IMG/VR virus record: IMGVR_UViG_3300042691_018647 | Span: 1 to 41,276 of that record | Length of the DNA: 41,276 nt | Reading direction: 5' to 3' (one strand) | From: a virus | Shown here: piece after piece, positions 4,248 to 25,607 of the stretch | How the letters are laid out: the number at the start of each line of letters is the position of its first letter | How positions within the stretch are numbered: position 1 is the stretch's first letter | Translations under genes and position numbers: made by a program | Notes under the pieces: model-generated | The model's input: the letters and a program-made list of their open reading frames with translations, nothing else | The model's database searches: none | What the model was told of the DNA's origin: nothing

Positions 4248-5886
4248 TGTTGCGCGGACCATCCTTGGGGAGGCGTTGAACGAGCCGTATACTGGCAAGA
4301 TCGCCGTTGCGAGCGTCATCGCCAATCGGGCGGCTACAAACTACGCTAAATATGGCTTTTCTCCAGCCGATCAGGCTTTGGCTGGAAACGGCCGCCAGTT
4401 CAACAACTGGATGAAGACCATAAATGGCAGGGCAAACGGCGCTTATTCCGCAACGATGTTACCCGCATCCGATCCGCGTTATCAAGAGGCGCGGTCTATC
4501 GCTGAAGGCGTGCTGAAGGGCGTCATCCCCGATCCTACAGGGGGCGCAACACACTATTACAATCCAAACATTGTTCGCCCCGCATGGGCGCGCGAGATGA
4601 CAGCCAAAGGCGAAACGCGGATTGGCGACCACGTATTTGGCACCGTTGCGCCTGGCGTTCAAATGGATCGGGGGATGGCCCCGGCCGGCTCAACATCCCC
4701 AGGCAAGGCGGCAGACAGTGTCGACAGGTACGCCGAACGCGCTTCCCTGATGCGGCCGCGCGGCTTCCCAACGGGCAAGCCGGGTGAATTGGGTGGCGTT
4801 CCTTTCGGCCTTGTTGCCGCCCCTGCATCTTCGCGCGCCATCAGCACCGCCACGCAGCCGCCTTCGACTTTTCAACAGATCGCCTCTTGGCTTTCGAACA
4901 TTGCGGACCGCGCGAATAACCCTAACCCGCGCCCGCCCGTTGACGTGCCGAAAATTCAGGATCGTATCGCGCCCGAGCAGTGGGGCGGGCCACTCTACAC
5001 GTCAAGCGCCACGCCGCTTTCGTCCGGCATGAGGCGCACGCCAACCGGCACCGGCACCAAAGCCGCGCCTGTCGCGCCTGTCACCCGCGCGACGCTCCCC
5101 GGACTGTCTACCGCGATGCGGACCAATGCGCAGGACGCTATAGATACCGCCCGTCGTCCTGCCCCGTCGCGTTCCAGCGCCGCAAGCATGGACGCCACAT
5201 TTGCTTCGTTCAAGCCGTCCGGACCCGATCCGCTTTCATTGGCAGACACGCGCGTCAGCGACAGGTTCGTTGCGCCAAACCCGTTTTCTTTCAACATCGG
5301 CGACAATCAAGCCGCTCGTGCTCCCCGCATCACGCCACCGACCAGTGGTGCGCGAATGACAGTCCGGAACGTGAACGCAAGTGTCGCCCCGCTAGCCATG
5401 GGGACGCTCGCGCGCGCCGCGTCTTCCGGCATCGGCATGGCGGCTTCTGGCGTGGCTCGTGGCGCGCAAAATGCAGTTGCCCGCATCATGACGCCGCCCG
5501 CTCCTGCAAAGCCCGTCATGACCGGCCTGAAAGGCGCTATAGGCGATCCGCGCCGCATGGACCTAGCGGGTGGCGTGCCGGGTGCGCGCCCCGCTCCCAA
5601 GCCAGTCGTCACGCAAAAGCCAGCGGCGGCAGTCCCTGCCCTTCCCCGCCCCGTCGTGGTCCGGACCGTGCCGCCACCGACGCCAGCCGTCATGTCGCCT
5701 GAACGCAGCACGCCGAACGCCTTTGAGGCGTCAGGAATGCGGCAGATCGGAACCGCGCCCAGCGGGGCCGCGCTCTATTCCAACGGAAACGGCCAAGTCT
5801 TCGCTGGCAAGGCTCCGTCAAACGCGCTCGGCGGCATGGGCTTTGGCGGTGGCGGCGGCTCGTTCCGAGGCGTCAACAACTATTGA
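4192..5886 (+). CDS. SleB-type cell-wall hydrolase domain protein with a long Pro/Ala-rich C-terminal extension
   Basis: The N-terminal ~150 aa (IDIVARTILGEA...IAVASVI.NR...GGATHYYNP..V.P.WA....IGDHVF) match the SleB/Hydrolase_2 pattern. The remaining ~400 aa are low complexity and end GGMGFGGGGGSF. The start could be 4192 or 4216. Confidence 0.85.
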   Translation: MKASERNAMADVSERDIDIVARTILGEALNEPYTGKIAVASVIANRAATNYAKYGFSPADQALAGNGRQFNNWMKTINGRANGAYSATMLPASDPRYQEARSIAEGVLKGVIPDPTGGATHYYNPNIVRPAWAREMTAKGETRIGDHVFGTVAPGVQMDRGMAPAGSTSPGKAADSVDRYAERASLMRPRGFPTGKPGELGGVPFGLVAAPASSRAISTATQPPSTFQQIASWLSNIADRANNPNPRPPVDVPKIQDRIAPEQWGGPLYTSSATPLSSGMRRTPTGTGTKAAPVAPVTRATLPGLSTAMRTNAQDAIDTARRPAPSRSSAASMDATFASFKPSGPDPLSLADTRVSDRFVAPNPFSFNIGDNQAARAPRITPPTSGARMTVRNVNASVAPLAMGTLARAASSGIGMAASGVARGAQNAVARIMTPPAPAKPVMTGLKGAIGDPRRMDLAGGVPGARPAPKPVVTQKPAAAVPALPRPVVVRTVPPPTPAVMSPERSTPNAFEASGMRQIGTAPSGAALYSNGNGQVFAGKAPSNALGGMGFGGGGGSFRGVNNY

Positions 5887-5893
5887 GGACACA

Positions 5894-6598
5894 ATGAACC
5901 GCAAAGCCTTTTATGACAGCGTTCGCGGCACGTTGTTCGGCGGTTCCCTCACGTCCGAACAGGTCGCGGGGATGGACGCGATCCTGAACGAGTGGAATCG
6001 GCGCGATCTGACCTTTGCGCCGTACCTCGCTTACATGCTGGCGACGGTCTTTCACGAGACGGCGCGCACGATGCAGCCCATCCGTGAGAAGGGCGGGCCT
6101 GCCTATTTCGCCAAGTACGAAAGACGGCGCGACCTCGGCAACACGCTACCCGGCGATGGCGTCAAGTTCCATGGGCGCGGCTTCGTGCAGCTTACCGGGC
6201 GGGCGAACTATGCCAAGGCATCGGCCAAACTGAACGCCGATTTTCTCGCCAATCCCGACGCCGTGATGCAGTTGAACTATGCCGTCCTGATCTTGTTCGA
6301 CGGCATGTTGGACGGCTGGTTTACGGGCCGGGAACTGGCTGATTATCGCAACGGCGATGCGTTCGATTATGTCGAGGCGCGGCGCATCATCAACCCTCGC
6401 GACCGGGCGAAGCTGATCGCCAGTCATGCAGAGCGCTTTGCAGATGCAATTGAGGCGGCGGAATCCGCGCCTGCCAGTGGTCCGGAAAAGCCGGACAACT
6501 CCCCGCCCGCCACCATTCCGGAAATTCCGGATAGTTCACCGCAAGCGCCCCGCTCGTGGTGGCGTCGTTTCATTGATTGGCTGACACGAAAGGATTGA
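5894..6598 (+). CDS. Glycoside hydrolase family 19 (chitinase-like) endolysin
   Basis: FHETARTMQPI.E.GG..YF.KYE....LGNT.PGDG.KFHGRGFVQLTGRANY is the GH19 phage lysozyme signature. The true start is the ATG at 5894 (GAGGAC upstream). The ORF-track 5570 start is an out-of-context extension that overlaps the preceding gene. Confidence 0.9.
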   Translation: MNRKAFYDSVRGTLFGGSLTSEQVAGMDAILNEWNRRDLTFAPYLAYMLATVFHETARTMQPIREKGGPAYFAKYERRRDLGNTLPGDGVKFHGRGFVQLTGRANYAKASAKLNADFLANPDAVMQLNYAVLILFDGMLDGWFTGRELADYRNGDAFDYVEARRIINPRDRAKLIASHAERFADAIEAAESAPASGPEKPDNSPPATIPEIPDSSPQAPRSWWRRFIDWLTRKD

Positions 6599-17086: not shown

Positions 17087-17413
17087 TCAGGCTGCGGTGG
17101 TAATCCGGGCGATAATGGATTCAATGATGGCGCGATCAGCTGGCGAAACGGCGCGCATTCTCTCTTCAAATGTCGGCTGGGCAGGATCGCGCAAAAGATC
17201 AGCCGGTTCGACGCCTAACGCCCATGCAATTTCAGCCATCCAGGCTTCGTTCATCCGACGCTTGCCGTTCTCTAAGTCCGACACGACGCCGCTGGATGTA
17301 TCTAACCGATTAGCTAATTGCGCTTGCGTCAACCCTTTGGCCGCGCGCCATTCGCGCACGAACCAACGAATTGGTTTTGAAGGGCCGATCCTGTCCATGC
17401 CCATTTTTACCAC
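17087..17413 (-). CDS. CI-like XRE-family HTH repressor
   Basis: GLTQAQLANRLDTSSGVVSDLENGKR is an XRE HTH. The gene is divergent from the Cro-like gene and flanked on both sides by the operator dyads. The start could be GTG 17413, ATG 17404 or ATG 17398. Confidence 0.88.
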   Translation of the reverse strand: MVKMGMDRIGPSKPIRWFVREWRAAKGLTQAQLANRLDTSSGVVSDLENGKRRMNEAWMAEIAWALGVEPADLLRDPAQPTFEERMRAVSPADRAIIESIIARITTAA

Positions 17414-17455
17414 GGCGCTATGTACAATGCGTCATCGTGAGTGCGAGTGCCTCTA

Positions 17456-17484
17456 TTGACTGGCAACTCGCATTATGCGAGTAT
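17456..17484 (+). promoter_or_regulatory. PR-like early promoter, TTGACT-17 nt-GAGTAT
   Basis: The -35 is at 17456-17461 and the -10 at 17479-17484. The perfect operator at 17467-17481 lies across the spacer and the -10. The predicted start site falls at about the ATG (17491). Confidence 0.6.
17467..17481. promoter_or_regulatory. Perfect operator dyad CTCGCA-TTA-TGCGAG
   Basis: The two 6-bp arms are exact reverse complements. Confidence 0.7.
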
Positions 17485-17490
17485 CGGTAC

Positions 17491-17706
17491 ATGATGAAAA
17501 ACGTTCTCCGACTTTTCCGAGACAAGCAGGGCTTGAGCCAGCGAGACGCTGCGGCGCTCATTGGCACATCAAGCGGGTATTGGTGCGATCTGGAAACGAG
17601 CCGCCGCGCGCCGTCGCCAAAGCTGGCGATCCGCATTGAGCAAGCGACCGGCATCCCCCGCGAACAACTCCGCCCGGATTTGTACACACGCGAGGCCAGC
17701 CAATGA
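17491..17706 (+). CDS. Cro-like XRE HTH protein (71 aa)
   Basis: GLSQRDAAALIGTSSGYWCDLETSRR is an HTH. ATG 17491 has no obvious SD. The ORF-track 17371 start lies inside the repressor gene. Confidence 0.85.
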   Translation: MMKNVLRLFRDKQGLSQRDAAALIGTSSGYWCDLETSRRAPSPKLAIRIEQATGIPREQLRPDLYTREASQ

Positions 17707-19856: not shown

Positions 19857-20200
19857 GCATGATTGACATCGTGCTCCCTCTCCCGCCGACAGCAAATAAC
19901 CTGTTCGCCAATCGCCGCAAAGGTCGCCGCGTTAGTGAGCAGTATGAGGCATGGCGCACACAAGCCGGATGGGCGCTAAAGCAACAGCGCCCGCCCGCCA
20001 TCCTTGGCCGCTTTGATTTGTCGCTGCTCGTTCCGCAGGCCATGCGCGGCGACATAAGCAACCGGATTAAAGCCGCTGAAGACCTGCTTGTCACGCATCG
20101 GCTTATCGAAGACGACCGGCACGCAGCCAGCGTCAAAATCTGCCGCTCGCCTGACGTGGAGCCGGGAACAATTCGCATCATCGTGGAGCCGACAACGTGA
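19853..20200 (+). CDS. rusA: RusA Holliday-junction resolvase
   Basis: LPLPPTANNLF and GDISNRIKAAEDLLV.HRLIEDDRH align with E. coli RusA LPWPPSNNRYY and RDLDNLQKAAFDAL....DDAQV. It has an ATGA overlap. Confidence 0.88.
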   Translation: MSMIDIVLPLPPTANNLFANRRKGRRVSEQYEAWRTQAGWALKQQRPPAILGRFDLSLLVPQAMRGDISNRIKAAEDLLVTHRLIEDDRHAASVKICRSPDVEPGTIRIIVEPTT

Positions 20201-20919
20201 CCCACCGCATTGAGACATTAGCCGAAGGCGTCACGCTCCACCTTGGCGATTGCAGAGAAATCCTGCCGACGCTTGGCAAGGTTGACGCTGTGGTGACCGA
20301 TCCGCCGTATGGTGTTGAGTTTAAAGGAAAGAACACCAAGCATACAAAACGCGAAAAAGACGGTTACGCGTCAACAGATGATAATTCTGATTTTATAGAA
20401 AATGTTGTTTTGCACGCCATCAAATACTGCTTGGCAAAAAGTGATAGTGTTGTGGTCACTCCGGGTACTCGAAATATGTATCGTTATCCTACACCGGCTG
20501 ATGTGGTGTCTATTTTTTATCCGAGCGGCGCTGGACTGGGGCGGTGGGGTTTTACATGCAGTCAGCCAATACTTTATTATGGACGTGATCCATATTTGAA
20601 GAATGGTATGGGCCATCGTCCAAATTCATTTCAAACCACAGAAAGCGCGCCGGAAAACGGTCATCCATGTCCTAAACCAATCGGCACAATGAAATGGCTA
20701 GTAAACAAAGCCAGTTTCCCCGGTTGGACAATCCTCGACCCCTTCATGGGTTCCGGCACGACTGGCGTTGCTGCCGTCAAACTAGGCCGAAAGTTCATCG
20801 GCATAGAGATCGAGCCGAAATACTTCGACATCGCCTGCAAGCGCATCAGCGAAGCGCTCAAGCAACCCGACATGTTTATCGAGCGCACCAAGTCTCCAAA
20901 ACAGGAGGCGTTTCTATGA
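20197..20919 (+). CDS. Beta-class DNA N6-adenine/N4-cytosine methyltransferase (orphan)
   Basis: Motif IV (VVTDPPYG) comes before motif I (ILDPFMGSGTTGVAA.KLGR.FIGIEI). No cognate endonuclease gene is present. Confidence 0.9.
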   Translation: MTHRIETLAEGVTLHLGDCREILPTLGKVDAVVTDPPYGVEFKGKNTKHTKREKDGYASTDDNSDFIENVVLHAIKYCLAKSDSVVVTPGTRNMYRYPTPADVVSIFYPSGAGLGRWGFTCSQPILYYGRDPYLKNGMGHRPNSFQTTESAPENGHPCPKPIGTMKWLVNKASFPGWTILDPFMGSGTTGVAAVKLGRKFIGIEIEPKYFDIACKRISEALKQPDMFIERTKSPKQEAFL

Positions 20920-21753: not shown

Positions 21754-22293
21754 ATGGCAACCGCGACCGAAGGCTTGTTGATTGAAAGCGTGTTTATTGA
21801 CCGGCTGATGAAGTCGGACCTGTACGCCGATCCTGTTGAGGGCTTAGTGCGAGCGCTCAAAGAACAATCGCCAAACGGCCTGACAATTGAGGTTTTGCAG
21901 CGCGCGGCGGATTCTATCATTCGGAACCATAGCAGCGGGGCTTTCCCAAAAACTCCCGCATGTCTTCGGGCAATTCAGGAAGCGTTGTACGCCGCTCCTG
22001 CGCCTTCCGCTGTGGCTGGCACTATCGATCCAACGACGCGCCACAATTACGCGGACCGGGCCATTGCGCATTGCCGGAAGCATGGCGGGAAGCCCATCGT
22101 CATCAGCCGCCTAGACGATCCCGACGCATGGAAGGAATGGGAACTGTATTTTGAACGAGCAGGAATGCCAGCAAGCGCCTCAATGATGCGCGAGGCGCAG
22201 GCGTCATCATGGACTGTCCCCGCCAAGCATCCTTGGGAGTTTGACATAACCGCAGAGGCATTTGGTCCACAATTTAAAGAGGCAGCGGAATGA
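21754..22293 (+). CDS. Hypothetical protein (179 aa)
   Basis: ORF with tight spacing to both neighbours. Confidence 0.75.
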   Translation: MATATEGLLIESVFIDRLMKSDLYADPVEGLVRALKEQSPNGLTIEVLQRAADSIIRNHSSGAFPKTPACLRAIQEALYAAPAPSAVAGTIDPTTRHNYADRAIAHCRKHGGKPIVISRLDDPDAWKEWELYFERAGMPASASMMREAQASSWTVPAKHPWEFDITAEAFGPQFKEAAE

Positions 22294-22838
22294 CGAAACC
22301 AGGCCGCAAGCGTAAGACTGGCGTGAAGCGTGAACCAAGTGGCCGCATCGCCAAAGCCTCGCGCGAGCGGCAGGAAGCGGCGAATGTTGTGGTGCTCGCT
22401 CAACCGCATCGGCGCGGGTCGCCGTCGCATTGGCGCTGCACCGCTTGGGGCCGCGTGATTGAGGACAGCGGACAGGTTCCCGCCGACGTGTCCCGCGCTG
22501 CGCTGTTTGAGGCAGGGAGCCGTTATTTGATCGACTATCGCAGGATGCTAGCGGTGACCGAGAACGTGTTCCCCTACGCAAATGCTGAGGGCGGCACGCC
22601 ACCAGAAATCGACCGAGACGAGCGCGACAAAATCATAGCAGCGTATGCCGGTGCCATGCGGTCCTTGCGCGATGGTGGCATTCGAGTGCGCGAGGCGATT
22701 GAATTTCTGGTGATCGAGCCGTTTGATGAAATGTGGCAGCCGCCGCATTGGGTTCAATTCTATGGCATCATCGGCCTTACGTGCCTTGCCGAGCATTACG
22801 GGCTGCAATGGCGTGGTGCGGATCGGGTGAAGGGCTGA
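22290..22838 (+). CDS. Hypothetical protein with a basic N-terminus (182 aa), last gene before the accessory island
   Basis: ATGA-coupled ORF with the N-terminus KPGRKRKTGVKREPSGR. Confidence 0.75.
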   Translation: MTKPGRKRKTGVKREPSGRIAKASRERQEAANVVVLAQPHRRGSPSHWRCTAWGRVIEDSGQVPADVSRAALFEAGSRYLIDYRRMLAVTENVFPYANAEGGTPPEIDRDERDKIIAAYAGAMRSLRDGGIRVREAIEFLVIEPFDEMWQPPHWVQFYGIIGLTCLAEHYGLQWRGADRVKG

Positions 22839-22861
22839 TGCAAAAATTTATGCAATTCCTG

Positions 22862-22894
22862 TTGACAGATTTGTATCGTTGCGATACATATAAT
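22862..22894 (+). promoter_or_regulatory. Sigma70-like promoter with an embedded perfect inverted repeat
   Basis: TTGACA lies at 22862-22867, the dyad TGTATCG-TTG-CGATACA at 22872-22888, TACATA at 22885-22890 (17-nt spacer) and TATAAT at 22889-22894 (21-nt spacer). Confidence 0.65.
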
Positions 22895-22923
22895 TCATCA
22901 GCAACGGGCTGAAACAACAGGAG

Positions 22924-23199
22924 ATGGAAATGCATTACACCCTTGGAAACCGTGCCAACCTTGCGTTCACCGCTCCCTTCGCGTGGAAGGATACGAAGTC
23001 GATTGAAGGCGTAATCGCATATGTTCGAGATGAATCCACGGGGCAGTATGTTCGCGTGTATGATTATGCAGACGAACAATATGTGCAGGGCGTCGCGCAA
23101 AGTTACAGTTGGGGGAATTTTGGGTCGGTAGAGGAAGCAAAGATTGCGATGAAATCTGCTTATAACTGGATTAACAAGCGATCAAAAAAGGCCGCGTAA
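22924..23199 (+). CDS. Small accessory protein (91 aa), moron
   Basis: AGGAG lies 5-6 nt before ATG 22924. The segment is A/T-richer and has its own promoter. Confidence 0.75.
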   Translation: MEMHYTLGNRANLAFTAPFAWKDTKSIEGVIAYVRDESTGQYVRVYDYADEQYVQGVAQSYSWGNFGSVEEAKIAMKSAYNWINKRSKKAA

Positions 23200-23229
23200 A
23201 AACAAAAAAGGGGGAGGGTGGCCTCCCCC
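23197..23229 (-). terminator. Strong intrinsic terminator oriented for minus-strand transcription
   Basis: The stem is GGGGGAGG/CCTCCCCC (23210-23217 and 23222-23229) with a 4-nt loop. On the minus strand it is followed by TTTTTTGTTTTT. On the plus strand no U-tract follows it. Confidence 0.7.
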
Positions 23230-23354
23230 ACCTTGTAGCGCCCCTCAAGGTTTAGGGACATTGCCTCCAATGCCAGAACAAAACGGACGTAGCGTGCGCG
23301 TTGCGTGCTAAGTTATAAACCATTACTAACAATTTGCGCTAGTAGAGACAAAAA

Positions 23355-23570
23355 ATGACCGCCGCCGAATTCCGCCACGCTCGCGAAAAGGTTTTCGGCC
23401 TCACTCAGTCAGAGTGGGGCCGTCGCCTTGGCATATCCCGCGTACAGGTCGCCAAAATCGAAGGCGGCGTTCATCCAGTGTCGCCCACGCTGGCGCTACT
23501 GGTCGGCGCGTACCTGAACCACGGCATTGACAAATCACCCGGTGCACGCTATCCGCGAAATACAGACTGA
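23355..23570 (+). CDS. Small XRE-family HTH protein (71 aa)
   Basis: GLTQSEWGRRLGISRVQVAKIEGG is an HTH. Confidence 0.8.
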   Translation: MTAAEFRHAREKVFGLTQSEWGRRLGISRVQVAKIEGGVHPVSPTLALLVGAYLNHGIDKSPGARYPRNTD

Positions 23571-23800
23571 CAGTCGTGTGACCGCAGTCGTGCCACCCGG
23601 CATCTACGAGAAGCCGGATACCTCGATTAAGCTGTGGCTTGTAGCGGTTTGAGGTAAACGACGTTCCCATGATGTAAGGATCGTCGGAGCGGGACATCAC
23701 CCGCGAACAGCCTGTAAGACCGCTGCGATGGCGGCGGCAGATAACGGGGATAAGGATCGGCATCAACCGGTCGGCTGCCCCGCTTCATTTGAGGTTGAGC

Positions 23801-24019
23801 ATGGCGCGCATCAACGGCGATAGATCGTCGTTCGCTGTCCATTGCTCGCGTGTGTTTCTCGTCCGAGACGCGCTGGAAGCCAAGTGCGGCCTGTCTGGCG
23901 ACCGAGAGGCGGCGCAGGCTTTCCACAAAGCCGAGACAGCACGCGAGCGGCAGCGCCATGCCGATTGGTCGAAGCAGGTCACACGGCGCGGCAGCATACG
24001 GGCTTGGAGGGCAGAATGA
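23801..24019 (+). CDS. Possible small protein (72 aa)
   Basis: ATG 23801 has GAGG about 9 nt upstream, and GC3 looks coding-like. No similarity recognised. Confidence 0.35.
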   Translation: MARINGDRSSFAVHCSRVFLVRDALEAKCGLSGDREAAQAFHKAETARERQRHADWSKQVTRRGSIRAWRAE

Positions 24020-24051
24020 CTTGCGAGATTGTTCGGATTTAATTACGCGCC

Positions 24052-24315
24052 ATGGACGAAAAACAATCGCGCAAAAAGGTAATGCCGGTATCTCCTGGCA
24101 GGCCAAAAGGCGTTCCAAACAAAGTGAACGGTCTGATCAAAGACATGATCGTGCAGGCCCTCGATAACGCGGGCGGCGTCGATTACCTGACCGAACAGGC
24201 GCGGCTCAATCCCGGCCCGTTCATGACGCTTCTGGGTAAGGTTCTGCCGACGCAAGTCACGGGCGAGGATGGCGGCCCGGTGAAAATCAGTGTCGAATGG
24301 AAACCCGGCGAATAG
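24052..24315 (+). CDS. Terminase small subunit-like protein
   Basis: 87 aa, immediately upstream of and overlapping TerL. The basic N-terminus contains GRPKGVPNK. Confidence 0.65.
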   Translation: MDEKQSRKKVMPVSPGRPKGVPNKVNGLIKDMIVQALDNAGGVDYLTEQARLNPGPFMTLLGKVLPTQVTGEDGGPVKISVEWKPGE

Positions 24316-25607
24316 TGCTCGATTACGCGCCGCGCCGCGCGTTCAAGTCGTTTCACAATCGGCAAGAGAGGTGGGCGGTGCTCGTTGCGCATCGCCGTGC
24401 CGGTAAGACGGTTGCGTGCGTCAATGACATCATCCGCCGCGCCGTGATGCTCGACGCCGAACATGGGCGATACGCCTATGTCGCGCCGTTCTTGGCGCAG
24501 GCGAAAGAGGTGGCGTGGGAATACGCTAAGCGCTTTGCGCAGCCAATCATTGCCAAGGTCAATGAGGCTGAACTCTGGATAGAGTTGTTGAACGGCGCTC
24601 GGATCCGAGTGCATGGTGCTGACAACCCGGATCGCCTTCGCGGTGCCTATCTCGACGGTGTGGTGCTCGACGAGTACGCGGATATGCGCCCCGGCGTCTG
24701 GGGCGAGGTCATCCGCCCGATGCTGGCGGATCGCAAGGGATGGGCGACGTTCATCGGCACGCCAAAGGGCAAGAACTCTTTCTGGCAACTGTATCAGGGA
24801 GCGACCGTAGAGTCTTCTTGGTTCTCGCTGATGCTCAAAGCATCGGAAAGCGGGCTGATCGACGCTGAGGAATTGGAAGCCGCGCGGGCGGACATGACGC
24901 CCGAACAGTTCGCGCAGGAATTCGAGTGCTCGTTTGATGCGGCCATTCTCGGCGCTTACTACGCCGCTGAAATCGCCAATATGGAGCGAGCGGGGCGGAT
25001 CGGGGCAATCGACGTTGAGCCGCTGTTGCCGGTTCATACTGCTTGGGATTTGGGCATAGGCGACAGCACGGCCATTTGGTTTTTCCAAGTCGTCGGCAAT
25101 GAACTGCGCATCGTGGACTTTTACGAGGCGACGGGGCAGGCCATCCCGCACTATGCGGCAGTCATCGCAGCCAAGGGTTACAAGCGCGGCGACGATTGGG
25201 TACCGCACGACGCCAAGGTTCGAGACTACGGTACGGGTCGCACGCGTATTGAGACCATGACGCAGCACGGCTTAAAGCCGCGCCTCGTGCCGGATCACAA
25301 GATTATGGACGGCATCAATGCCGTCCGCCTCACGCTGCCCCAAGCGCGGATTGACGAAGGCCGGTGCAAGGATGGCATCGAGGCGCTTCGCCAGTATCGC
25401 GCGGAATTCGACGAAAAAGCGCGGGTGTTCAAGGACGCGCCAAAGCACGATTGGACGTCACATTGCGCCGACGCGATGCGCTACGTCGCGATGGCATGGC
25501 GCGAAATGAAGCCCAAGACCGAAAAGCCAAAAATCCGATTGCAGACAGGTCAAGTCTGGCTGCCCGGCGCGCCTGAGCCGAACAGGTCCACAAGGATACG
25601 ACTTTGA
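24297..25607 (+). CDS. terL: Terminase large subunit
   Basis: It has a Walker A-like AHRRAGKT, a Walker B-like VVLDEY, and C-terminal nuclease acidic motifs (AWDLGIGDSTA, WVPHDA, HCADAMRY). Confidence 0.9.
   Translation: METRRIVLDYAPRRAFKSFHNRQERWAVLVAHRRAGKTVACVNDIIRRAVMLDAEHGRYAYVAPFLAQAKEVAWEYAKRFAQPIIAKVNEAELWIELLNGARIRVHGADNPDRLRGAYLDGVVLDEYADMRPGVWGEVIRPMLADRKGWATFIGTPKGKNSFWQLYQGATVESSWFSLMLKASESGLIDAEELEAARADMTPEQFAQEFECSFDAAILGAYYAAEIANMERAGRIGAIDVEPLLPVHTAWDLGIGDSTAIWFFQVVGNELRIVDFYEATGQAIPHYAAVIAAKGYKRGDDWVPHDAKVRDYGTGRTRIETMTQHGLKPRLVPDHKIMDGINAVRLTLPQARIDEGRCKDGIEALRQYRAEFDEKARVFKDAPKHDWTSHCADAMRYVAMAWREMKPKTEKPKIRLQTGQVWLPGAPEPNRSTRIRL

What the first reader, a model, noticed from the sequence alone, without database searches (positions are those of the whole stretch)
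22839..23570. Accessory island with acr-aca-like architecture: operator-bearing promoter, small A/T-rich gene, small HTH gene
Between the early genes and the terminase lies an A/T-richer island. It has three parts.
- A near-consensus promoter: TTGACA at 22862, then TACATA or TATAAT. The spacer is a perfect 7-bp inverted repeat, TGTATCG-TTG-CGATACA.
- A 91-aa protein of no recognisable family, with a good RBS (22924..23199).
- A 71-aa XRE HTH protein (23355..23570). Its own upstream region carries a TACTA-N11-TAGTA dyad over a TTGCGT-17-TACTAA promoter-like sequence.

A strong promoter containing a dyad, followed by small unknown gene(s) and a small HTH autoregulator, is the hallmark layout of anti-CRISPR/Aca and other anti-defence loci. 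The sequence gives no direct evidence of function. The two genes are separated by 155 nt and a hairpin, so they may not form one operon.
Basis: inference. Interest (0 to 1): 0.65.

Follow-up and report, generated by a model that had tools for sequence, protein, structure and literature searches.

The report
Self-regulated accessory gene cassette in phage
A temperate phage from lake metagenomes carries, between its replication and DNA-packaging genes, a horizontally acquired cassette: a strong promoter with a built-in repressor site, an 89-residue protein of unknown function and no known fold, and a small DNA-binding regulator. This is the same layout as anti-CRISPR/Aca loci, but what the small protein does is still untested.

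Summary
The sequence features are real and at the stated coordinates. Four details need correcting.
- The gene starts at ATG 22930, giving 89 aa rather than 91.
- The -10 that fits the spacing is TACATA. TATAAT lies 21 nt from the -35.
- The second dyad and promoter, in front of the HTH gene, are no better than chance and are not conserved.
- The low-GC island (46.5% against 59.4%) covers the promoter, the 89-aa gene and the spacer, but not the HTH gene.

Comparison with other phages supports the architecture.
- The 89-aa protein belongs to a phage-restricted family (phrog_22809, about 89 clusters). Its confident model matches no solved structure.
- In 13 independent loci the gene sits 53-69 nt behind its own sigma-70-type promoter.
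- Inverted repeats are enriched in these promoters (combined p about 0.001). In five of them the right arm overlaps the -10.
- In five independent phages the gene is followed by a small XRE HTH. Four of these HTHs clearly belong to one subfamily (phrog_14076), and in four phages the genes overlap as an operon.
- The same HTH subfamily also follows unrelated small genes. In phage 16-3 it heads a replication operon behind its own dyad-bearing promoter.

Best reading: an autorepressed, moron-like early cassette that works like an acr-aca operon. An anti-defence role for the cargo is plausible (about 0.3) but has no direct evidence.

The parts
22839..22861 (+). A/T-rich tract upstream of the -35 (TGCAAAAATTTATGCAATTCCTG), resembling an UP element
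   Evidence: GC of 22839-22929 is 0.374. Similar AAAAT(T)ATGCA tracts lie upstream of the -35 in L018, L030 and L031.
22862..22867 (+). -35 hexamer TTGACA
   Evidence: TTGAC(A/T/G) occupies the same position, 53-69 nt from the ATG, in 10 homologous loci.
22872..22888 (+). 17-bp operator-like dyad TGTATCG-TTG-CGATACA. It fills the promoter spacer and overlaps the first 4 nt of the -10.
   Evidence: Unique in the window. p about 0.03-0.04 alone; the same geometry occurs in L031, L115, L018 and L029.
22885..22890 (+). Most likely -10 (TACATA, 17-nt spacer). The alternative TATAAT at 22889-22894 has a 21-nt spacer.
   Evidence: Alignment with homologous promoters TTGACA-17-TAnnnT. Not called by the consensus scan.
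22895..22929 (+). Inferred transcription start (A22897 within TCAT) and 5' leader. It includes the conserved 13-mer TCATCAGCAACGG (22895-22907) and the RBS GGAG (22920-22923).
   Evidence: The 13-mer or near-copies occur in L021/L017, L030 and L116 in front of different first genes. The leader fold is not significant (z 0.14).
22930..23199 (+). 89-aa protein of family phrog_22809 ('fam89'). The model has five beta strands and a C-terminal basic helix.
   Evidence: phrog_22809 E 8.2e-8 over its full length. There are 11 representative relatives and 89 clusters. AF2 pLDDT 83, pTM 0.71. No PDB fold match. The only BFVD match is the phiM12 homologue. GC 0.481.
23210..23229 (+). G+C-rich hairpin GGGGGAGG-GTGG-CCTCCCCC closing the cassette, acting as a terminator or 3' stabiliser. 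It has no T-run on the plus strand.
   Evidence: Homologous to the plus-strand terminator upstream of the HTH in L016. Comparable hairpins without a T-run close cistrons in L018.
23233..23276 (+). Non-coding stretch TTGTAGCGCCCCTCAA..TAGGG..TGCC.CCA..GCCAG, conserved with L016. Role unknown.
   Evidence: alignment.
23301..23344 (+). Unsupported.
   Evidence: Present. Not called by the scan. The dyad is not above chance. The segment is absent from L016.
23355..23570 (+). 71-aa XRE-type HTH regulator of subfamily phrog_14076 (N-terminal MTxxEFR, C-terminal LLxxAY). It is the candidate repressor of the 22872 dyad.
   Evidence: HTH_31. phrog_14076 for the window, L029 and L115 proteins. Subfamily HMM hits: 16-3 p099 1e-35, L115 6e-17, DSS3-P1 3e-17. 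AF2 model of four helices, pLDDT 84.

Best explanation
Region 22839-23570 is an autonomous accessory transcription unit. It lies at the junction between the replication module and the packaging module of a temperate phage.

**Proposed mechanism**
1. Host sigma-70 RNA polymerase fires a strong promoter: an A/T-rich upstream tract, TTGACA, a 17-nt spacer and TACATA, with the start near A22897.
2. This produces a burst of an 89-aa phage-specific protein (phrog_22809). The protein acts on the host cell. Its target is unknown; a defence system is the leading candidate.
3. A G+C-rich hairpin closes the cassette.
4. The adjacent 71-aa XRE HTH is made by read-through and/or from a weak promoter of its own.
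5. The HTH binds as a dimer to the 17-bp dyad TGTATCG-TTG-CGATACA. This dyad fills the spacer and overlaps the -10, so binding excludes polymerase and shuts the promoter off again.

This is the pulse-then-silence logic of acr-aca operons. The promoter, gene and hairpin have the properties of a moron: low GC, self-contained, and absent from relatives. They were probably inserted in front of a resident HTH.

**Shown:** the anatomy; conservation of the promoter and dyad geometry; linkage between the cargo and the HTH; phage restriction of the cargo family.

**Inferred:** that the HTH binds this dyad; that binding represses; what the 89-aa protein does.
For: - **Anatomy.** Established.
- **Own promoter.** fam89 has a sigma-70-type promoter 53-69 nt upstream in 10-13 independent loci. 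These include lytic Sinorhizobium phage phiM12, with TTGACA-17-TATGTT.
- **Inverted repeats are enriched in these promoters.** Five of 13 promoters have perfect arms of at least 7 bp, and the combined p is 0.0013.
- **The right arm overlaps the -10** in the window, L031 (TATAGCGC-agat-GCGCTATA-TT), L115 (CATACGCT-agaa-AGCGTATG-TT), L018 and L029.
- **fam89 is followed by a small HTH** in the window, L029, L031, L115 and L116. In the last four the genes overlap as operons.
- **The window, L029 and L115 HTHs belong to one PHROG**.
- **The L029 operator-promoter is repeated** in front of a second HTH paralogue.
- **Phage 16-3 p099 has two TAATGA-AAAA-TCATTA-type dyads** in its own promoter.
- **Different regulators appear with the same cargo.** In L019 a ribbon-helix-helix (RHH)-like gene and a duplicated inverted-repeat promoter flank fam89. 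In L018 four repeated dyad promoters drive small-gene cassettes that include fam89.
- **The cassette is accessory.** It is absent from 80 phages with related terminases. It is essentially absent from 185,579 representative genomes.
- **Orientation is independent of both flanking modules** in L115 and L116.
- **Published Aca promoters have the same design** (PMC9410906 section 18; PMC13551039 sections 22 and 24).
Against: - In this window the two genes are separated by 155 nt, a stable hairpin and a composition break, so co-transcription is not assured.
- The dyad occurs only once in the window. Nothing similar lies upstream of the HTH gene.
- No binding data exist.
- L021 encodes an HTH with an almost identical recognition helix. 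Its promoter has direct GCTACA repeats rather than this dyad.
- Five or six of the 13 fam89 loci have no recognisable regulator nearby.
- The HTH subfamily also heads a replication operon in phage 16-3, so it is not specific to accessory cargo.
- fam89 is mildly basic (median pI 8). It resembles no known anti-defence protein.
- The promoter windows for the first enrichment test were chosen after inspection. The unbiased re-test still rests on few loci.
Confidence: 0.55

Rival explanations
1. The region holds two unrelated units. One is a moron (promoter, fam89, terminator) whose dyad is bound by some other factor or is incidental. The other is an independent resident HTH that regulates something else, such as the late or packaging operon or a replication operon as in phage 16-3.
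For: - A hairpin, a 155-nt gap and a GC break separate the genes.
- In L016 the unit 'terminator, conserved spacer, HTH' follows a different gene.
- Phage 16-3 p099 heads an endonuclease VII and primase operon.
- The HTH lies just upstream of the terminase genes in the window, L021, L029 and L031.
Against: - fam89 and a small HTH are adjacent in five independent phages, and overlap in four.
- No copy of the dyad, and no other repeated site, lies between the HTH gene and terS.
- The HTH is missing from 80 phages with related terminases, so it is not a core late regulator.
Confidence: 0.2
2. The region is a lysis-lysogeny accessory switch of the P22 immI type. fam89 would be a small antirepressor, or another modulator of the CI-like repressor. 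It would be kept silent by the small HTH acting at an operator inside a strong promoter.
For: - The phage is temperate: it has an integrase and a CI/Cro pair.
- The layout (strong promoter overlapped by an operator, small regulator, small effector) also describes P22 Pant/arc/ant. This rests on established knowledge, not on a test made here.
Against: - fam89 is also carried by lytic T4-superfamily Sinorhizobium phages and sits in long early small-gene arrays. An antirepressor has no obvious use there.
- It shows no similarity to known antirepressors.
Confidence: 0.1
3. The region is a type II toxin-antitoxin pair in HigBA order, with fam89 as toxin and the HTH as antitoxin and autorepressor.
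For: - A small gene is followed by an overlapping XRE HTH in L029, L031, L115 and L116.
- The HTH model superposes best on the HigA2 antitoxin (TM 0.72, rmsd 1.1 A).
- There are sub-threshold NCBIfam hits to the HipB, MqsA and HigA antitoxin families.
Against: - fam89 occurs without any HTH in several phages, including lytic ones.
- It is virtually absent from 185,579 cellular genomes.
- There are no PADLOC or NCBIfam toxin hits.
- The antitoxin-family hits lie far below their cut-offs and equal the generic XRE similarity to Aca2 and C proteins.
Confidence: 0.05

Closest known systems
acr-aca operons (anti-CRISPR genes with Aca1-Aca14 repressors)
   Same: - A sigma-70-type promoter has an inverted repeat inside the core promoter.
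- Small genes of unknown family come first and a small DNA-binding autoregulator comes last.
- In relatives the same operator-promoter is duplicated in front of neighbouring units (L018, L019, L029). This matches the multi-operon control described for Aca proteins (PMC13551039).
- The locus is accessory and mobile.
   Different: - The cargo has no similarity to any known Acr or anti-defence protein.
- The HTH has no specific similarity to known Aca families.
- In this window a hairpin and 155 nt separate cargo and regulator.
- The HTH subfamily also heads a replication operon in phage 16-3.
- The host and its defence systems are unknown.
Phage morons (promoter-gene-terminator insertions, as defined in lambdoid phages)
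   Same: - The unit has its own promoter and a closing hairpin.
- Its G+C content is atypical (0.465 against 0.594).
- It sits between two functional modules.
- It is absent from related phages.
- In L115 and L116 it lies in the opposite orientation to both flanking modules.
   Different: Classical morons are usually constitutively expressed from the prophage. This promoter carries an operator and has a neighbouring regulator, which points to gated, probably early-lytic, expression.
Restriction-modification controller (C) proteins, and Cro-type autoregulators
   Same: - The regulator is a small XRE HTH of about 70 aa.
- A dyad operator overlaps its own promoter.
- The HTH model superposes on C.AhdI, C.Kpn2I, C.BclI and 434 Cro.
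   Different: - There is no restriction enzyme gene downstream.
- This is not the phage's immunity Cro. That pair lies at 17087-17706 and uses a different operator, ACTCGCAT-T-ATGCGAGT.
Rhizobium phage 16-3 p099 (annotated 'transcriptional regulator') and phrog_14076
   Same: - It belongs to the same HTH subfamily (HMM E 1e-35).
- It has its own promoter with a dyad in the spacer.
   Different: - In 16-3 it is the first gene of a unit that continues into endonuclease VII and primase/polymerase.
- It is preceded by an unrelated 124-aa gene.
- No fam89 is present.

Membership tests
acr-aca (Aca-regulated anti-defence) operon | A small HTH or RHH regulator gene lies at the 3' end of, or directly beside, the small-gene unit. 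| tested here: met
   - Window: HTH at 23355-23570, 155 nt after the cargo.
- The genes overlap as an operon in L029, L031, L115 and L116.
acr-aca (Aca-regulated anti-defence) operon | A consensus-like promoter carries an inverted repeat within the core promoter. | tested here: met
   - TTGACA, 17 nt, TACATA, with a 7-bp perfect dyad in the spacer and -10.
- Enrichment across 13 loci, p = 0.0013.
- The -10 is weak, and the scan tool did not call the promoter.
acr-aca (Aca-regulated anti-defence) operon | The regulator binds the inverted repeat and represses the promoter. | not testable with these tools
   Only indirect support: a duplicated operator-promoter in front of the second HTH paralogue in L029, and dyads in the phage 16-3 p099 promoter.
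acr-aca (Aca-regulated anti-defence) operon | The regulator is homologous to a described Aca family. | tested here: not met
   - A profile search of PDB sequences, which include solved Aca proteins, returned no Aca at E <= 1.
- Foldseek gives Aca2 TM 0.70, no better than HigA2 or C proteins, and all E >= 0.014.
- Aca HMMs were not available.
acr-aca (Aca-regulated anti-defence) operon | The upstream gene inhibits CRISPR-Cas or another defence system, or is homologous to a protein that does. | tested here: not met
   - No Pfam, NCBIfam or PADLOC hit.
- No PDB fold match.
- Only a noise-level profile hit to Tad1 (E 0.7).
- Activity itself cannot be tested here.
acr-aca (Aca-regulated anti-defence) operon | The regulator is linked to variable cargo in different elements (guilt by association). 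| tested here: inconclusive
   - Genes upstream of the HTH subfamily: fam89 (window, L029, L031, L115); a 65-aa gene (L017/L021); a 61-aa gene (L023); a different gene (L016); p098 (phage 16-3); gp25-gp23 (DSS3-P1).
- Few loci were available, and 16-3 points to a housekeeping use.
Moron | A self-contained promoter-gene-terminator unit with atypical composition, absent from related phages. | tested here: met
   - Promoter and hairpin.
- GC at the 0.07th percentile.
- No fam89 in 80 loci with related terminases.
- Opposite orientation to both flanks in L115 and L116.
phrog_22809 (uncharacterised phage protein family) | A full-length match to the family profile. | tested here: met
   - E 8.2e-8, residues 3-88 against profile positions 1-90 of 91.
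- Structural match to the phiM12 member: TM 0.81, rmsd 1.8 A.
XRE/Cro-C1 HTH (Pfam HTH_31; phrog_14076) | A profile match above the curated cut-off, and a helical HTH fold. | tested here: met
   - HTH_31 at 29.7 bits against a cut-off of 27.
- phrog_14076 E 2.8e-8.
- Four-helix model, pLDDT 84.
- XRE-type regulators are the top Foldseek hits.
Type II toxin-antitoxin (HigBA order) | The toxin gene is never found without its antitoxin, and the pair is widespread in cellular genomes. | tested here: not met
   - fam89 occurs without an HTH in L030, L032, L033, L117 and phiM12.
- Two scans of 185,579 genomes gave one hit, a phage-like MAG contig.
R-M controller (C) protein system | The regulator precedes a restriction endonuclease gene. 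| tested here: not met
   Downstream of the HTH are a 480-nt gap and the terminase genes.

The most novel reading that the evidence does not exclude
phrog_22809 is a new family of phage counter-defence or host-takeover proteins. It has a fold not represented among solved structures. In alphaproteobacterial phages it is deployed from burst-type promoters, and these promoters are shut off by a previously undescribed Aca-like XRE subfamily (phrog_14076; in some phages an RHH-like protein instead). The early/late module junction would then be a hotspot for such cassettes in these phages.
Probability: 0.3. Interest if true: 0.7.

Novelty: new member of a known kind. Interest (0 to 1): 0.5.

Why it matters
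If the inference holds, this is a ready-made candidate for a new anti-defence or host-takeover protein. It comes together with its regulator and operator.

The family is also present in cultivable systems where it can be tested directly:
- Sinorhizobium phages phiM12, phiM7 and phiN3;
- an Ensifer adhaerens prophage;
- phage 16-3, for the HTH subfamily.

It would also extend the acr-aca design principle to alphaproteobacterial and freshwater phages, where few anti-defence genes are known. If the 89-aa protein has some other role, the locus remains a clean natural example of an operator-gated moron.

Tried and rejected
- **Rfam scan of the whole window.** No RNA family reached threshold.
- **DNA similarity of 22290-24320 to isolated phages.** Only a 69-nt hit inside the terS-like gene.
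- **tblastn of the window fam89 against phages.** No match, although phiM12-type homologues exist. This is a sensitivity limit of the search.
- **Word-indexed protein search with single sequences.** It returned almost only the phage itself. All 15 contigs carrying the genes are at least 99.8% identical copies of the same phage, so they provide no natural variants.
- **Structured 5' UTR.** This would be the analogue of the RNA motifs bound by Aca1 and Aca2. Leader folds are no better than shuffles.
- **Tad1 lead.** The profile hit to the C-terminal helix of Tad1 has E 0.7 and Foldseek does not recover it. Treated as noise.
- **Is the dyad the CI/Cro operator?** No. The immunity operator is ACTCGCAT-T-ATGCGAGT, and there is no second copy of the 22872 dyad.
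- **Is the HTH a core late regulator?** It is absent upstream of TerL in 80 related phages.
- **Conserved partner for fam89.** A 46-62-aa protein follows it only in L029, L030 and L031. The other downstream neighbours are unrelated to one another.
- **Minus-strand terminator reading of the hairpin.** No minus-strand gene ends there. The A-run partly encodes the Lys-rich C-terminus of fam89, and the hairpin aligns to a plus-strand terminator in L016.
- **Literature search.** Searching by family and locus-tag names found nothing.
Full report
**1. What is in the sequence**

- TTGACA lies at 22862-22867.
- The perfect dyad TGTATCG-TTG-CGATACA lies at 22872-22888.
- TACATA (22885-22890) is 17 nt from the -35. 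TATAAT (22889-22894) is 21 nt from it.
- One ORF ends at 23199. A 155-nt gap follows, with a G+C-rich hairpin at 23210-23229.
- A 71-codon ORF runs from 23355 to 23570. Its product is an HTH_31 protein (E 7.9e-7, above Pfam's cut-off).

Several details need correcting.
- **Start codon.** GGAG (22920-22923) abuts the first ATG. The usable start is ATG 22930, giving 89 aa. Public gene calls use this start, and homologous leaders of the type GGAGAnnGAAATG agree.
- **Promoter strength.** The consensus scan found no promoter in 22000-24600. The -10 at correct spacing matches only 3 of 6 positions and lacks the final T.
- **Hairpin.** The same scan scores the hairpin as a terminator only on the minus strand.
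- **Extent of the island.** Region 22839-23354 has GC 0.465 against 0.594 for the contig, the 0.07th percentile. The HTH gene is ordinary at 0.606. The low-GC island is therefore the promoter, the 89-aa gene and the spacer, not the HTH gene.

**2. The phage**

The window is a whole 41.3-kb contig of a temperate phage. It encodes:
- a tyrosine integrase, and ERF and YqaJ recombination proteins;
- a divergent CI-like/Cro-like pair at 17087-17706, with operator ACTCGCAT-T-ATGCGAGT;
- a replication module with DnaA_C-like, RusA, an orphan N6/N4 methyltransferase and an O-like protein;
- then the island, a terS-like gene, TerL and the portal gene.

Fifteen other public contigs that carry the two genes are at least 99.8% identical copies from several metagenome samples.

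**3. The 89-aa protein**

The protein matches phrog_22809 over its full length. It has no Pfam, NCBIfam or PADLOC hit. An exhaustive HMMER search found 11 representative relatives. A profile search found 89 clusters.

AlphaFold gives a confident model (pLDDT 83, pTM 0.71) with five beta strands and a long C-terminal helix. Foldseek finds nothing in the PDB (best E 1.2). In BFVD it finds only the homologue from Sinorhizobium phage phiM12 (TM 0.81). A profile hit to the C-terminal helix of Tad1 is at noise level (E 0.7) and the fold search does not recover it.

The family is mildly basic (median pI 8). It is phage-restricted. Two pattern scans of 185,579 representative genomes gave a single hit, on a phage-like MAG contig that is the same element as L030. 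Among isolates, only the lytic T4-superfamily Sinorhizobium phages phiM12, phiM7, phiM19 and phiN3 carry it. In phiM12 it lies in an accessory region of tRNAs and small ORFs.

**4. Promoters of the family**

I compared thirteen independent loci: the window, L018-L020, L029-L034 and L115-L117.

A TTGAC-type -35 lies 53-69 nt before the start codon in ten of these loci where a promoter was assigned. About 17 nt downstream is a TAnnnT-type -10, and then a TCAT initiator. L115 and L116, read by eye, show the same -10 and initiator. This pattern places the window's -10 at TACATA and its transcription start near A22897.

The leader 13-mer TCATCAGCAACGG (22895-22907) recurs in L021/L017, L030 and L116.

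Inverted repeats are enriched in these promoters. With a fixed window of -95 to -35 from the ATG, five of 13 loci have perfect arms of at least 7 bp. Each of these has p <= 0.043 against random windows from the same locus, and Fisher's combined p is 0.0013. An earlier test that used promoter-centred windows gave p = 0.002.

The geometry also repeats: the right arm runs into the -10.

| Locus | Dyad and -10 |
|---|---|
| Window | CGA[TACA]TA |
| L031 | TATAGCGC-agat-GCGC[TATA]TT |
| L115 | CATACGCT-agaa-AGCG[TATG]TT |
| L018 | ATACGAA-N5-TTCGCA[TA]CTGT, present four times in one small-gene array |
| L029 | TATAGCAA-TTGCCA[TA]TATA |

Published Aca promoters have the same design (PMC9410906, section 18).

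**5. Link to the HTH**

fam89 is followed by a small XRE HTH in five independent phages:
- the window, after a 155-nt gap;
- the Ensifer adhaerens prophage L029, as fam89, a 46-aa ORF and the HTH, with overlapping stop and start codons;
- L031, as fam89, a 58-aa ORF and the HTH;
- L115, as fam89 and the HTH, overlapping;
- L116, as fam89, a 44-aa ORF and the HTH.

The window, L029 and L115 HTHs fall in one PHROG, phrog_14076. A subfamily HMM scores L115 at 6e-17, phage 16-3 p099 at 1e-35 and the two Ruegeria phage DSS3-P1 paralogues at about 3e-17. L116 is borderline at 1e-6.

In L029 the fam89 promoter is duplicated (18 of 24 positions identical) immediately upstream of a second HTH paralogue. 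Phage 16-3 p099 has TAATGA-AAAA-TCATTA-type dyads in and just upstream of its own promoter. So members of this subfamily consistently sit behind dyad-bearing promoters.

Two other phages place fam89 under repeated inverted-repeat promoters with a different candidate regulator. L019 has a ribbon-helix-helix (RHH)-like ORF between two copies of TTTTTGGTATTGCCAAAAA. L018 has an HTH-like ORF at the end of a four-promoter array. This resembles the multi-operon control reported for Aca proteins, including the RHH protein Aca14 (PMC13551039, sections 22 and 24).

**6. Is the cargo variable?**

Partly. The HTH subfamily follows:
- fam89 in four phages;
- an unrelated 65-aa gene in L017/L021. There the promoter and leader are homologous to the window's, and the unit lies divergent from terS;
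- a 61-aa gene in L023;
- a different gene in L016;
- a 124-aa gene in phage 16-3;
- a three-gene set in DSS3-P1.

The L016 alignment is informative. The hairpin and a 44-nt spacer (23233-23276) are homologous, but the gene upstream of them differs. Together with the GC break, this suggests that the fam89 cassette was inserted in front of a resident 'terminator, spacer, HTH' unit.

In phage 16-3 the HTH heads a unit that continues into endonuclease VII and primase/polymerase. The subfamily is therefore a general small autoregulator, not a dedicated Aca.

**7. Accessory status and location**

None of 80 viral contigs with related TerL (50-69% identity) has fam89 or a specific HTH within 5 kb upstream. 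These relatives share little beyond the packaging genes, so this shows only that the island is not part of the packaging module.

The cassette lies at the junction of the replication and packaging modules in the window, L029, L031, L115 and L116. In the last two it is in the opposite orientation to both flanking modules. That is what an autonomous transcription unit would look like.

**8. What did not hold up**
- The second dyad (TACTA-N11-TAGTA) and the TTGCGT-17-TACTAA promoter are not above chance, are not called by the scan, and lie in a 40-nt segment missing from L016.
- The 5' leaders are not significantly structured.
- The HTH model (pLDDT 84) superposes equally well on HigA2, Aca2, C proteins and 434 or P22 repressors, all with E >= 0.014. 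Fold therefore does not discriminate between Aca, antitoxin and controller roles. Sequence profiles recover no Aca from the PDB.

**9. Interpretation**

The best-supported model is an operator-gated, moron-like early cassette that works like an acr-aca operon. It gives a burst of an 89-aa host-directed protein from a strong promoter. The neighbouring HTH then shuts the promoter off by binding the dyad that overlaps the -10.

My confidence in this regulatory architecture is about 0.55. The cargo's function is unknown. I put an anti-defence role at about 0.3, based on guilt by association:
- it is phage-restricted;
- it is small;
- it is expressed early from a strong promoter;
- it appears with different regulators in different phages;
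- it is also carried by lytic phages.

The rivals are:
- two unrelated units (0.2);
- an immI-like antirepressor module (0.1);
- a toxin-antitoxin pair (0.05). This is weakened because fam89 occurs without an HTH and is nearly absent from cellular genomes.

**10. Novelty and verdict**

The design is a known kind. The members are new: an uncharacterised protein family with no structural relatives, and an HTH subfamily not among the described Aca proteins as far as I could test.

I rate the finding a new member of a known kind, with interest 0.5. It is a concrete and testable candidate, with homologues in cultivable Sinorhizobium/Ensifer phage-host systems, but it has no functional evidence yet.

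Noticed in passing
window 23571-24051: A 480-nt stretch lies between the HTH stop codon and the terS-like gene. It opens with a tandem direct repeat, CAGTCGTGTGACC / CAGTCGTGCCACC, at 23571-23597. Public gene calls on identical contigs disagree about a 72-aa ORF at 23801-24019 (GC3 0.70). This could be the pac/cos site or the late-promoter region.
   Followed up: partly
window 17405-17490 (operator at 17466-17482): The immunity region has a CI-like gene at 17087-17404 (-) and a Cro-like gene at 17491-17706 (+). Between them lies a perfect 8-bp-arm palindrome, ACTCGCAT-T-ATGCGAGT. It is unrelated to the 22872 dyad.
   Followed up: partly
L018 1700-5200 (IMGVR_UViG_3300032282_002682): Four copies of the promoter GTTGACATACGAAG-N4-TTCGCATA each drive one or a few small genes. 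The leaders end in ATGGAGATnGAnATG. The cistrons are closed by GGGGCTTCGGCCCC hairpins that have no T-run. fam89 is the first gene after copy 2.
   Followed up: partly
L019 4640-6280 (IMGVR_UViG_3300045733_000243): The inverted-repeat promoter TTTTTGGTATTGCCAAAAA occurs twice, at 4644 and 5903. An RHH-like 69-aa ORF (5687-5896) ends the first unit, and fam89 starts the second. The 'RHH' assignment is by eye only; Pfam gave no hit.
   Followed up: partly
L119 3400-3710 (Rhizobium phage 16-3, p099): p099 is a strong member of the HTH subfamily. Its promoter is TTGTCT-17-TATATG, with TAATGA-AAAA-TCCTTA in the spacer. A perfect TAATGA-AAAA-TCATTA lies just upstream. The mRNA would be almost leaderless. 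Endonuclease VII and primase/polymerase genes follow. No paper that mentions p099 was found.
   Followed up: partly
window 22895-22907; L021 4783-4795; L030 about 5975; L116 about 4975: The 5' leader motif TCATCAGCAACGG, or near-copies of it, is shared by promoters in front of different first genes (fam89 or an unrelated 65-aa gene). The promoter-leader unit therefore travels independently of the cargo.
   Followed up: partly
window 23233-23276 and L016 95-137: A non-coding stretch, TTGT.GCGCCCCTCAA....TAGGG.C..TGCC.CCA..GCCAG, is conserved between two otherwise diverged HTH upstream regions. No function is assigned, and its fold is only marginally stable.
   Followed up: partly
window 20197-20919: An orphan N6/N4 DNA methyltransferase gene has the lowest G+C of the contig (0.49). 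It is probably another acquired accessory, possibly anti-restriction, gene. Relatives L029, L030 and phage 16-3 also carry orphan methyltransferases near their cassettes.
   Followed up: no
L029 6282-6422; L031 4627-4803; L030 6231-6419: A tiny conserved ORF of 46-62 aa, with the motif EQ..ARLE.LW.KLEDEG.Y..ANTVALAIE.I, directly follows fam89 in three phages. It has no family assignment and is absent from the window.
   Followed up: partly
L031 3473-4006: A phage-encoded sigma-70 region-2 (ECF-like) sigma factor gene lies just upstream of the fam89-HTH operon in this relative.
   Followed up: no
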